Shown: piece by piece, positions 11,956 to 12,046 of the stretch
Layout of the letters: each line of letters begins with the position of its first letter
How positions within the stretch are numbered: the first letter of the stretch is position 1
Assembly (NCBI GenBank): GCA_030950085.1
Contig: JAUZRW010000118.1
Coordinates: forward strand, 1-23,119
Direction: 5' to 3'
Origin: Anaerolineae bacterium
GTDB lineage: Bacteria; Chloroflexota; Anaerolineae; Aggregatilineales; Phototrophicaceae
DNA length: 23,119 nt
Program-made: the position numbers and the translations under genes
The notes under the pieces: model-generated
Databases searched by the model: none
Told to the model about the DNA's origin: nothing
Seen by the model: only the letters and a program-made list of their open reading frames with translations

Positions 11956-12046
11956 CTTGTTTAACAAACTATTTGCGATAACGTCCTAACGCTCGTCTTA
12001 TATTGCCATTTTGTGTGAGGTGCGGTGAAACTCCGAAAGGGGCTTA
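11956..12046 (+). repeat. Dispersed structured element, family 1, copy A (~90 nt): CTTGTTTAACAAACT...GATAACGTCCTAAC...hairpin 1...GGTGAAAC-hairpin 2-CTTAT.
   Basis: It aligns to 18688-18779, 22637-22726 and the reverse complement of 21945-22035. Hairpin 1 is CTTATA...TGTGAG (CTCACA...TGTGAG in other copies; the changes preserve pairing through G:U). Hairpin 2 is CTCC-GAAA-GGGG (CCCC-GAAA-GGGG elsewhere). It ends 40 nt upstream of the ATG at 12086. Confidence 0.7.

What the first reader, a model, noticed from the sequence alone, without database searches (positions are those of the whole stretch)
11956..12046. Family of ~90-nt structured dispersed elements (4 copies in 11 kb) with structure-preserving substitutions
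Copies lie at 11956-12046 (+), 18688-18779 (+), 21945-22035 (-) and 22637-22726 (+). They share CTTGTTTAACAAACT, a GATAA..CTAAC block and ATTTTGTGTGAGGCGCGGTGAAACCCCGAAAGGGGCTTAT.

Two hairpins are maintained despite sequence change. Hairpin 1 is CTCACA/TGTGAG in copies C and D, CTTATA/TGTGAG in A (the two changes become G:U pairs) and CGCATA/TGTGAG in B. Hairpin 2 is CCCC-GAAA-GGGG in B, C and D and CTCC-GAAA-GGGG in A (a G:U pair), capped by a GNRA tetraloop. This conservation of pairing points to a functional RNA, or to a structured MITE family, rather than neutral repeat decay.

The copies sit in four different contexts: in sense 40 nt upstream of a secreted-protein gene, after tRNA-Gln, antisense between two genes, and 160 nt upstream of a membrane-protein gene.
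Basis: seen in the sequence. Interest (0 to 1): 0.7.

Follow-up and report, generated by a model that had tools for sequence, protein, structure and literature searches.

The report
Lineage-specific dispersed intergenic repeat family
Four copies of a 91-base repeat are scattered between genes of an uncultured Anaerolineae bacterium and look like small parasitic mobile DNA, not a proven structured RNA, so the finding is real but fairly ordinary.

Summary
The four copies exist where stated. A 34-nt probe with up to 3 mismatches finds 4 matches against 0 in shuffles. The core is 91 nt: 11956-12046 (+), 18688-18778 (+), 21945-22035 (-), 22634-22724 (+). Its edges are sharp. All copies are intergenic.

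The claim of structure-preserving substitutions does not hold as evidence:
- No base pair changes on both sides, and the 3' arms never vary.
- The four pair-keeping changes are one-sided C-to-T, the commonest change in the element.
- Folds are mostly no better than shuffles.
- Nothing reaches an Rfam threshold.

Evidence for inserted, lineage-restricted DNA:
- A relative has a 13-nt spacer between the two genes that flank copy C. The window's 188-nt spacer is 6 + 84 (a second repeat family) + 91 (copy C) + 7.
- Neither family appears in relatives' loci, GTDB genomes, JGI metagenomes, viral contigs, plasmids or phages.
- A 99.97%-identical sister assembly keeps the same copies. It also carries two new IS66-family insertions, both at the edge of a copy.

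No terminal inverted repeats or target duplications were found, so it is not a canonical MITE. An IS91-like single-strand mechanism is possible but untested. An RNA role is unsupported, not excluded.

The parts
11956..12046 (+). Family-1 copy A (91-nt core). It ends 39 nt upstream of the ATG of a signal-peptide protein gene (12086-13015) and lies 227 nt downstream of tRNA-Ser.
   Evidence: CM 107.7 bits.
12047..12077 (+). 3' tail of about 30 nt shared only by copies A and B (TTTATC..GA.ATTAG.AGAAA).
   Evidence: BLAST extends the A-B alignment to 12077/18810. Local alignment of the tails gives p of about 0.01 against shuffles.
18688..18778 (+). Family-1 copy B (91-nt core). It follows tRNA-Gln (18542-18615) and its terminator-like hairpin (18646-18667) and faces the 3' end of a convergent gene (18827-19852, minus strand).
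   Evidence: CM 106.3 bits.
18779..18810 (+). A/B-type 3' tail of copy B. In the sister assembly an IS66-family element is inserted at 18781-18788 (8-bp duplication TTCAAATA).
21945..22035 (-). Family-1 copy C (91-nt core), antisense between the MBL-fold gene (21204-21854) and the 103-aa ORF (22043-22354). In the sister assembly an IS66-family element is inserted at 22026-22033, inside the copy's 5' TGTTTAAC.
   Evidence: CM 113.3 bits. A relative has a 13-nt spacer at this site.
22634..22724 (+). Family-1 copy D. Its first 5 nt differ from the other copies, and clear similarity starts at 22639 (TTAACAAACT). It ends about 160 nt upstream of the ATG at 22887.
   Evidence: CM 109 bits.
21861..21944 (+). 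Family-2 repeat (84 nt, with imperfect terminal inverted repeats TTAGGACTTACGCAGT-like). It directly abuts the 3' end of copy C.
   Evidence: D4; nhmmer 1.4e-26.
22713..22799 (-). Family-2 repeat fused to the 3' end of copy D. The junction is GGGGCTTAC, about 10 nt shorter than in copy C.
   Evidence: I4, I5; nhmmer 2.4e-23.
13024..13107 (+). Solo family-2 repeat just after the stop codon of gene 12086-13015.
   Evidence: D4; nhmmer 3.2e-26.
18356..18429 (-). Degenerate family-2 fragment upstream of tRNA-Gln. Its 24-nt core (18389-18412) is identical to 21890-21913.
   Evidence: D6; nhmmer 1.1e-5.
11822..11848 (+). Short fragment resembling a family-2 terminal inverted repeat (TTAGGACTTACGCGGTTGAC), between tRNA-Ser and copy A.
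   Evidence: (I7, I14). nhmmer is weak (E = 0.19).
6086..6129 (-). Possible degenerate remnant of the family-1 5' half (70% to copy D over 44 nt). It has no 3' module. Doubtful.
   Evidence: I6; CM 10 bits, E = 3.7.

Best explanation
Family 1 is a lineage-specific, non-coding, non-autonomous interspersed repeat. A 91-bp unit has been copied into intergenic DNA of this Anaerolineae (Phototrophicaceae/Aggregatilineales-like) genome, alongside a second, TIR-bearing repeat family.

Shown:
- The copies are discrete units with unrelated flanks.
- They lie only between genes and in either orientation.
- At one site, a relative has only a 13-nt gene spacer where the window carries copy C plus its family-2 neighbour.

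Inferred:
- The two conserved ends are the sequences an enzyme encoded elsewhere in the genome needs to move the unit. These are the 5' 15 nt, with the palindrome TTGTT-T-AACAA, and the 3' 41 nt, with two small hairpins.
- This would explain why the ends stay 87-92% identical while the middle has drifted to 61%.
- There are no terminal inverted repeats and no target duplications, the ends are asymmetric, and the wobble pairs work on one strand only. The most likely mechanism is therefore single-strand (HUH-type) transposition, of the IS91 rolling-circle kind or the IS200/IS605 kind. On that reading the hairpins are DNA recognition structures and CTTG/CTTA are cleavage or target tetranucleotides.
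- This last step is a hypothesis, not a result.
For: 1. Real, sharply bounded family. There are 4 copies against 0 expected. Pairwise core identity is 74-84%. Flank identity is 17-33%, i.e. random.
2. All copies are intergenic. Three are co-directional with neighbouring genes and one is antisense.
3. Empty-site evidence. In L009 (MBL protein 74% and ORF103 65% identical) the two genes are 13 nt apart. The window spacer of 188 nt is 6 + 84 (family 2) + 91 (copy C) + 7, which leaves 13 nt.
4. Restricted distribution. There are no members in about 90 kb of relatives' loci by nhmmer and CM. Two degenerate patterns found none in GTDB species genomes or JGI metagenomes, and the two single hits were chance matches. 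There were none in viral contigs, plasmids or phages.
5. Company of other mobile DNA. Family 2 has imperfect TIRs and abuts C and D. An active IS66-family element is polymorphic between two 99.97%-identical assemblies and landed twice at family-1 copies.
6. Conservation pattern. Variable columns are 4 of 15 (5' end), 22 of 35 (middle) and 6 of 41 (3' module); Fisher p = 1.6e-5.
7. No TIR or TSD is visible at any copy (sequence inspection). The IS91 family likewise has no TSD, a CTTG/GTTC tetranucleotide at one end and subterminal palindromes (PMC13181058).
Against: - Only four copies from one 23-kb contig are available. About 8 kb of further sequence from the same population holds no more copies.
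- No autonomous partner or HUH transposase is seen in the DNA available.
- Family-1 copies show no presence/absence difference between the two near-identical assemblies, so recent mobility is not shown.
- The empty site comes from a distant relative (74% protein identity) and its spacer sequence is not alignable.
- An 83% relative has a 116-nt spacer of unknown content.
- CTTG and CTTA cannot be told apart from ordinary element sequence.
- C and D both carry family 2 on the 3' side, which a rolling-circle unit ending at GGGG/CTTA would not co-mobilise.
- Strong conservation of the 3' module could equally reflect a host-level function.
Confidence: 0.6

Rival explanations
1. The repeat encodes a multi-copy small RNA, or a cis-acting RNA module acting as a leader, processing signal or stability signal. 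Its function lies in the conserved 3' part: hairpin 1, the GGCGCGGUGAAA linker, and the C(GAAA)G tetraloop hairpin.
For: - The 3' 41 nt is far better conserved than the middle.
- The G:U pairs form only on the sense strand, and the GNRA tetraloop on a C-G closing pair is a typical RNA feature.
- A and D lie in sense upstream of genes.
- In C and D the adjoining family-2 unit supplies a terminator-like hairpin plus a T-run in the same orientation (site 21904-21889).
Against: - There is no compensatory change, and 2 of 48 stem cells are broken.
- The pair-keeping changes are the commonest mutation type.
- Three of four RNA folds are not significant (z = +0.19, -0.78, -1.82); only copy B reaches -2.78, and its fold includes an extra 5' hairpin.
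- Nothing reaches an Rfam threshold. The best scores are 13-15 bits to Cyano-1 against a cutoff of 41, and 11.7 bits to a CRISPR-repeat hairpin.
- No shared promoter-like site is found.
- B and C have no sense-strand gene downstream.
- The family is absent from relatives at about 80% protein identity, where a useful RNA would usually persist.
Confidence: 0.15
2. The repeat is a DNA-level host site for a DNA-binding protein. Candidates are a regulator recognising the palindrome TTGTT-T-AACAA, or a nucleoid or topology factor, as proposed for REP/BIME elements.
For: - An 11-bp perfect palindrome sits at the 5' end in A, B and C.
- Primary sequence, not just pairing, is conserved in both end modules.
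- The location is intergenic.
Against: - Copy D lacks the full palindrome.
- Orientation and distance to promoters or genes are inconsistent.
- Flanking genes share no functional theme.
- The family is absent from relatives.
Confidence: 0.1
3. The copies are passive remnants of segmental duplications or recombination scars. On this reading they are neither mobile nor functional.
For: - C and D form an inverted pair 600 nt apart around one ORF, and each has family 2 on its 3' side (I1, 27).
- The D junction looks like a CTTA...CTTA microhomology deletion of the C-type junction.
Against: - Flanks of A, B and C/D are unrelated right up to the 91-nt edges.
- C and D are no closer to each other (81%) than to A (84% and 79%).
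- Neutral scars would not keep a 41-nt block at 92% while the middle falls to 61%.
Confidence: 0.08
4. The repeat is an assembly or binning artefact of the MAG.
For: The source is a metagenome-assembled contig.
Against: Copies B, C and D occur at the same positions in an independent assembly, GCA_030949545.1, at 99.97-100% identity. Copies also differ from one another by 16-26%, so they are not collapsed duplicates.
Confidence: 0.01

Closest known systems
Bacterial interspersed intergenic repeats of unknown or trans mobilisation (ERIC, pneumococcal BOX/RUP, Bacillus cereus bcr1, Rickettsia RPE). From general knowledge, not tested here.
   Same: About 100-bp non-coding units with several copies per genome. 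They are intergenic, occur in either orientation, can form hairpins, are restricted to a narrow lineage, and are often nested with other repeats.
   Different: There is no sequence similarity. Copy number is known only for 23 kb. This family is not an overall palindrome, unlike ERIC, and shows no target-site duplication, unlike bcr1 and RUP.
Canonical MITEs (for example Correia/NEMIS, or Nezha in cyanobacteria)
   Same: Small, non-coding and dispersed. It is inserted between genes, and a relative shows an empty site.
   Different: Family 1 has no terminal inverted repeats and no target-site duplication, and no parent IS is known. The neighbouring family 2 fits the MITE description better (imperfect 16-nt TIRs TTAGGACTTACGCAGT).
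IS91-family rolling-circle elements and their minimal terIS/oriIS derivatives (PMC13181058)
   Same: No TSD and no TIR, with two different ends. One end has a tetranucleotide (here CTTG) next to a single palindrome. The other end has two imperfect subterminal palindromes followed by a related tetranucleotide (here CTTA). The IS91 target is CTTG/GTTC with a conserved T at position 2.
   Different: No Y2 HUH transposase is seen, and no similarity to IS91 ends was tested. Here the whole unit is 91 bp, whereas the experimental mini-IS91 used 89 bp + 82 bp of end sequence. CTTA is not among the tetranucleotides listed in the paper's Table 2. Family 2 travels with C and D beyond the supposed end.
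IS200/IS605-derived palindrome-associated elements and REP/REPIN with RAYT transposases
   Same: Single-strand, hairpin-dependent, without TIR or TSD, and strand-specific.
   Different: Left and right hairpins here are unrelated to each other. There is no GTAG/CGTC tag (PMC3733652 describes those), no inverted REP doublet, and no conserved 5' flanking target across all copies.
   Same: Two-hairpin small RNA motifs from comparative screens. cmscan gives a weak alignment of the 3' module to Cyano-1.
   Different: Scores of 13-15 bits against a gathering score of 41 (E = 2.9 and 8.6 even in 150-nt searches) are noise. No Chloroflexi family scored at all.

Membership tests
Canonical MITE | Terminal inverted repeats | tested here: not met
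   The 5' end CTTGTTTAACAAACT and the 3' end GAAAGGGGCTTA are not complementary. The only inverted match is a 6-of-7 heptamer (GTTTAAC/GTGAAAC) that sits 17 nt inside the 3' end.
Canonical MITE | Target-site duplication flanking each copy | tested here: not met
   Flanks of A, B, C and D share no direct repeat. The only recurring flank-edge bases (CTT...CTT) are identical in all copies, so they cannot be told apart from element sequence.
Canonical MITE | Short, non-coding, multi-copy, dispersed | tested here: met
   Four 91-nt copies in 11 kb. Stop codons occur in the unit and no consistent ORF is present.
Canonical MITE | Insertion shown by an empty site, or polymorphism | tested here: inconclusive
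   A distant relative (L009) has a 13-nt spacer where the window has 6 + 84 + 91 + 7 nt. The two near-identical assemblies show no family-1 polymorphism. The 83% relative has a 116-nt spacer with no DNA available.
Canonical MITE | Related autonomous IS with matching ends | tested here: inconclusive
   The only IS available (IS66 family, in L007) has unrelated ends and interior.
IS91-family-derived (rolling-circle) mini element | No TSD and no TIR | tested here: met
   As above. The IS91 family properties are taken from PMC13181058.
IS91-family-derived (rolling-circle) mini element | Specific tetranucleotide abutting the ori end, and a related cleavage tetranucleotide at the ter end | tested here: inconclusive
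   CTTA follows the 3' hairpins in 4 of 4 copies and CTTG starts 3 of 4 copies. Without empty sites from close relatives, target sequence and element sequence cannot be separated.
IS91-family-derived (rolling-circle) mini element | Subterminal imperfect palindromes at both ends | tested here: met
   TTGTT-T-AACAA is at the 5' end (A, B, C). Hairpins 1 and 2 are at the 3' end. They are weak thermodynamically.
IS91-family-derived (rolling-circle) mini element | Y2 HUH transposase encoded in the genome | not testable with these tools
   Only about 31 kb of this population is reachable (window, L007, L008), and none is encoded there.
IS200/IS605-type element or REP/REPIN | Similar hairpins at both ends (or inverted REP doublet) and a conserved target 5' of the left end | tested here: not met
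   The end hairpins are unrelated in sequence. The 5' flanks are ACTA, GCTA, ATTC and, for D, something different.
Described RNA family (Rfam 15) | Score at or above the family gathering threshold | tested here: not met
   Only the two tRNAs pass. Permissive scans of all four copies give nothing above 15 bits on the element.
Structured functional RNA (generic) | Covariation: pairs kept through changes on both sides | tested here: not met
   0 of 12 pairs. Power is very low with 4 sequences, so this removes the claimed support and does not exclude an RNA.
Structured functional RNA (generic) | Conservation in related species | tested here: not met
   No member is found in six relatives' loci or in any collection scanned.
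Structured functional RNA (generic) | Discrete transcript | not testable with these tools
   No expression data are available.
Integron attC site | R''-L''...L'-R' symmetric stem with RYYYAAC/GTTRRRY ends | tested here: not met
   On the antisense strand GTTTCAC...GTTAAAC resemble R''/R'. The inner arms, however, lie 6 nt from one and about 30 nt from the other, the copies are not in a cassette array, and no integrase is present (sequence inspection).

The most novel reading that the evidence does not exclude
Family 1 is a miniature non-autonomous element moved as single-stranded DNA by an HUH (IS91-like rolling-circle or IS200/IS605-like) transposase in Anaerolineae. A terIS-like end (CTTG plus one palindrome) and an oriIS-like end (two hairpins plus a CTTA target) would be packed into only 91 bp. 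That would explain the strand-specific G:T wobble pairs and the lack of TIRs and TSDs. An even more novel variant is that the conserved 3' module has been co-opted as a multi-copy small RNA.
Probability: 0.2. Interest if true: 0.45.

Novelty: new member of a known kind. Interest (0 to 1): 0.25.

Why it matters
If the main reading is right, this is one more lineage-specific family of small parasitic repeats. It is useful mainly for annotation: it should be masked, and not mistaken for a regulatory RNA. It also marks genome plasticity in a poorly studied group of uncultured Anaerolineae.

It gains some interest for three reasons:
- It lacks the usual MITE hallmarks.
- It sits where an active IS66-family element has inserted twice.
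- It could be a very small substrate for a single-strand transposase.

It would matter more if a genome-wide set of copies showed real covariation or a transcript. The present data give no positive support for either.

Tried and rejected
- Rfam membership. The gathering scan of the whole window finds only 2 tRNAs. Permissive scans over all four copies give only noise.
- Search for members elsewhere.
  - Two degenerate patterns were run against GTDB species genomes and JGI metagenomes. They gave 0 hits, plus two single chance hits inside unrelated sequence.
  - Viral contigs, plasmids and phages gave none.
  - A literature search for the sequences found nothing, and a Chloroflexi + MITE search found nothing relevant.
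- Harvesting more copies from the same organism.
  - ilvC, the secreted protein and GatA were not on record.
  - The MBL protein led to a sister assembly (L007) and the FHA protein to L008, but these add only about 8 kb of new sequence with no new copy.
  - The IS66 transposase search gave only hits of 84% identity or less on about 1.5-kb contigs.
- The IS66-family element as parent of either family: rejected, because its ends and interior are unrelated.
- Shared sigma-70-type promoter inside the element: none found.
- Intrinsic terminator role: the CCCC-GAAA-GGGG stem is not followed by a T-run. In reverse it is followed only by TTTC.
- attC, REP/REPIN, IS200/IS605, CRISPR solo repeat, group II intron fragment and retron readings: rejected on architecture or on absence of partner genes.
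- The idea that the A/B 3' tail is a decayed family-2 end: not significant.
- Long-range helix GCGATAA/TTATCG closing the element: it pairs in A and C only, and in C the 3' side belongs to the family-2 TIR, so I did not count it.

Full report
**What is there**

The four copies are real.
- Direct reading shows them at the stated places.
- A 34-nt probe from the 3' part, allowing 3 mismatches, finds exactly four matches with 0-2 mismatches. None of 100 dinucleotide-preserving shuffles gives any.
- An HMM and a covariance model built from the copies find only these four in the window, even with all filters off.
- Alignment with flanks gives a 91-nt core with sharp edges: A 11956-12046 (+), B 18688-18778 (+), C 21945-22035 (-), D 22634-22724 (+).
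- Pairwise core identity is 74-84%. Identity in the six bases either side is 17-33%, which is random.
- A and B share a further tail of about 30 nt.
- D lacks the first five bases of the CTTGT start, and B lacks the GATAA..CTAAC block.

**Source and setting**

- The window is an entire contig of an NCBI metagenome-assembled 'Anaerolineae bacterium'. Its GatA cluster representative is 100% identical on a 23,119-bp contig.
- The nearest named relatives are Phototrophicaceae/Aggregatilineales.
- All four copies are intergenic.
- A lies in sense 39 nt before a signal-peptide protein gene.
- B lies after tRNA-Gln and its terminator, facing the end of a convergent gene.
- C is antisense between an MBL-fold hydrolase gene and a 103-aa ORF.
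- D lies in sense about 160 nt before a gene starting at 22887, which is a VWA-domain protein in the sister contig.
- B and C have no gene downstream in sense, so a common 5'-leader role is unlikely.

**A second repeat family**

The self-comparison shows an 84-nt family 2.
- Full copies lie at 13024-13107 (+), 21861-21944 (+) and about 22713-22799 (-).
- Fragments lie at 18356-18429 and 11822-11848.
- It has imperfect 16-nt terminal inverted repeats (TTAGGACTTACGCAGT / TTAGAAGTTACGCAGT).
- It directly abuts the 3' end of copy C.
- It is fused to the 3' end of copy D through a junction about 10 nt shorter, which looks like a CTTA...CTTA microhomology deletion.
- Intergenic DNA between 11.8 and 22.8 kb is therefore a patchwork of two repeat families.

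**The structure claim**

- No pair changes on both sides.
- The 3' arms are invariant, so the shuffle control is uninformative.
- Three positions (four cells) show one-sided C>U changes that leave G:U pairs.
- C>T is the commonest singleton change over the whole element (5 of 20). A C opposite a G will therefore usually become a 'preserved' G:U pair without any selection.
- RNA folds of single copies give z = +0.19, -2.78, -1.82 and -0.78.
- DNA folds of the 51-nt 3' module give z between +0.2 and -2.1, and copy A does not form either hairpin in its minimum-energy fold.
- Rfam gives only the two tRNAs at gathering thresholds.
- Permissive scans give only noise: Cyano-1 at 13-15 bits against a cutoff of 41, and a 17-nt resemblance to a CRISPR repeat hairpin at 11.7 bits.

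The pairing argument therefore adds no support for an RNA. With four sequences it cannot exclude one either.

Variable columns number 4 of 15 in the 5' end, 22 of 35 in the middle and 6 of 41 in the 3' module (Fisher p = 1.6e-5).

**Distribution**

- A degenerate 3'-module pattern that leaves both stems free gave no match in one genome per GTDB species or in JGI metagenomes.
- An end-anchored pattern gave one hit in each collection. Both lie in unrelated sequence with no internal similarity, which is about the number expected by chance (my estimate).
- Viral contigs, plasmids and phages gave nothing.
- About 90 kb of loci from relatives sharing roughly 74-85% identity in GatA or the MBL protein contain neither family.

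**Sister assembly**

- The MBL-fold protein is also encoded, identically, on a 30.8-kb contig of GCA_030949545.1.
- That contig is 99.97-100% identical to window 12731-23119. It carries B, C, D and the family-2 copies at the same places, which rules out an assembly artefact.
- It differs by two 1.51-kb insertions of one IS66-family element. The Pfam domains are DDE_Tnp_IS66, zf-IS66 and DUF6444, the terminal inverted repeat is GTAACTGCTCAGG, and the target duplication is 8 bp.
- One insertion lies 2 nt after the 3' end of copy B (TTCAAATA). The other lies inside the 5' TGTTTAAC of copy C.
- If insertions fall at random within the 2.1 kb of shared intergenic DNA, both landing within 10 nt of a family-1 copy has a probability of about 0.02.
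- The IS is unrelated in sequence to either repeat family.
- The 7.2 kb beyond the window end and the 0.7 kb before its start hold no further copies.

**Empty site**

- In a relative (L009; MBL 74% and ORF103 65% identical) the MBL gene and ORF103 are separated by 13 nt.
- In the window the spacer is 188 nt: 6 nt, then family 2 (84), then copy C (91), then 7 nt.
- The residue is again 13 nt, although the spacer sequences themselves are not alignable.
- An 83% relative has a 116-nt spacer, but its DNA could not be retrieved.
- This is good, though distant, evidence that C and its neighbour are insertions into a once tight gene pair.

**Interpretation**

The best-supported reading is a lineage-specific, non-autonomous interspersed repeat. 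Its conserved ends are what a trans-acting enzyme needs.

It is not a canonical MITE, because I found neither terminal inverted repeats nor target duplications.

Its layout recalls IS91-family ends as described in PMC13181058. That family has no TSD, a CTTG/GTTC target next to oriIS, subterminal palindromes, and about 80-90 bp per end sufficing for transposition. The parallels in family 1 are:
- CTTG plus the palindrome TTGTT-T-AACAA at one end;
- two small imperfect hairpins followed by CTTA at the other end;
- wobble pairs that work on one strand only.

A single-strand HUH mechanism is therefore my preferred sub-hypothesis. It remains inference, for three reasons: no such transposase is visible in the DNA available, CTTG and CTTA cannot be separated from element sequence, and family 2 accompanies both C and D beyond the supposed end.

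The rivals are an RNA function of the 3' module, a protein-binding DNA site, and passive duplication. I give them about 0.15, 0.10 and 0.08.

**Verdict**

This is a genuine repeat family, new as a sequence family but of a familiar kind. The specific claim that made it look special, pairing kept by substitutions, is not supported. Interest is low to moderate.

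Noticed in passing
window 13024-13107 (+), 21861-21944 (+), 22713-22799 (-); fragments 18356-18429 and 11822-11848: A second dispersed repeat family of about 84 nt. It has imperfect terminal inverted repeats (TTAGGACTTACGCAGT-like), a highly conserved centre (ATTTTCGGGCGCACAC) and, in one orientation, a terminator-like hairpin plus T-run. 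It abuts the 3' end of family-1 copies C and D. It was not found outside this lineage.
   Followed up: partly
L007 6060-7576 and 10831-12341 (window insertion points 18781-18788 and 22026-22033): The sister assembly GCA_030949545.1 carries two copies, 98% identical to each other, of a 1.51-kb IS66-family element absent from the window. They have 8-bp duplications TTCAAATA and GTTAAACA (common form nTYAAAYA). Both sit at the edges of family-1 copies, which suggests recent IS activity and a possible target preference.
   Followed up: partly
window 22355-22640 (+), especially 22499-22573 and 22377-22405: The spacer between ORF103 and copy D folds unusually well (z = -3.55). It contains a long AT-rich hairpin (22499-22573, which also drew spurious miRNA-model hits) and a GC-rich hairpin just after the ORF103 stop. 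No function is assigned.
   Followed up: no
window 830-1445 (+), inside ORF 1-3276: Dense 6/12-nt periodic repeats encode a long Thr/Pro-rich linker (TPTxT...) in a large protein whose N-terminus runs off the contig. It is 1289 aa in the sister assembly. This is coding low complexity, not a non-coding repeat.
   Followed up: no
window 6086-6129 (-): A 44-nt stretch is 70% similar to the 5' half of copy D, including D's own upstream CAATC. It lies upstream of the ABC-transporter gene. It may be a decayed partial copy or a chance match (CM E = 3.7).
   Followed up: partly
window 22043-22354 and flanks; L009 10001-11423; JGI 3300071358 contig: The MBL-ORF103 gene pair is conserved in relatives and is followed there by a Zn-ribbon gene. 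In the window lineage the synteny breaks right after ORF103, where copy D and family 2 lie. The repeats therefore mark a rearrangement point.
   Followed up: partly
window 19849-20895 (-) versus L007 8922-9668: The XdhC-like gene is a 348-aa ORF in the window, but only 248 aa are called in the sister assembly despite near-identical DNA. This is probably a start-codon choice or a single difference.
   Followed up: no
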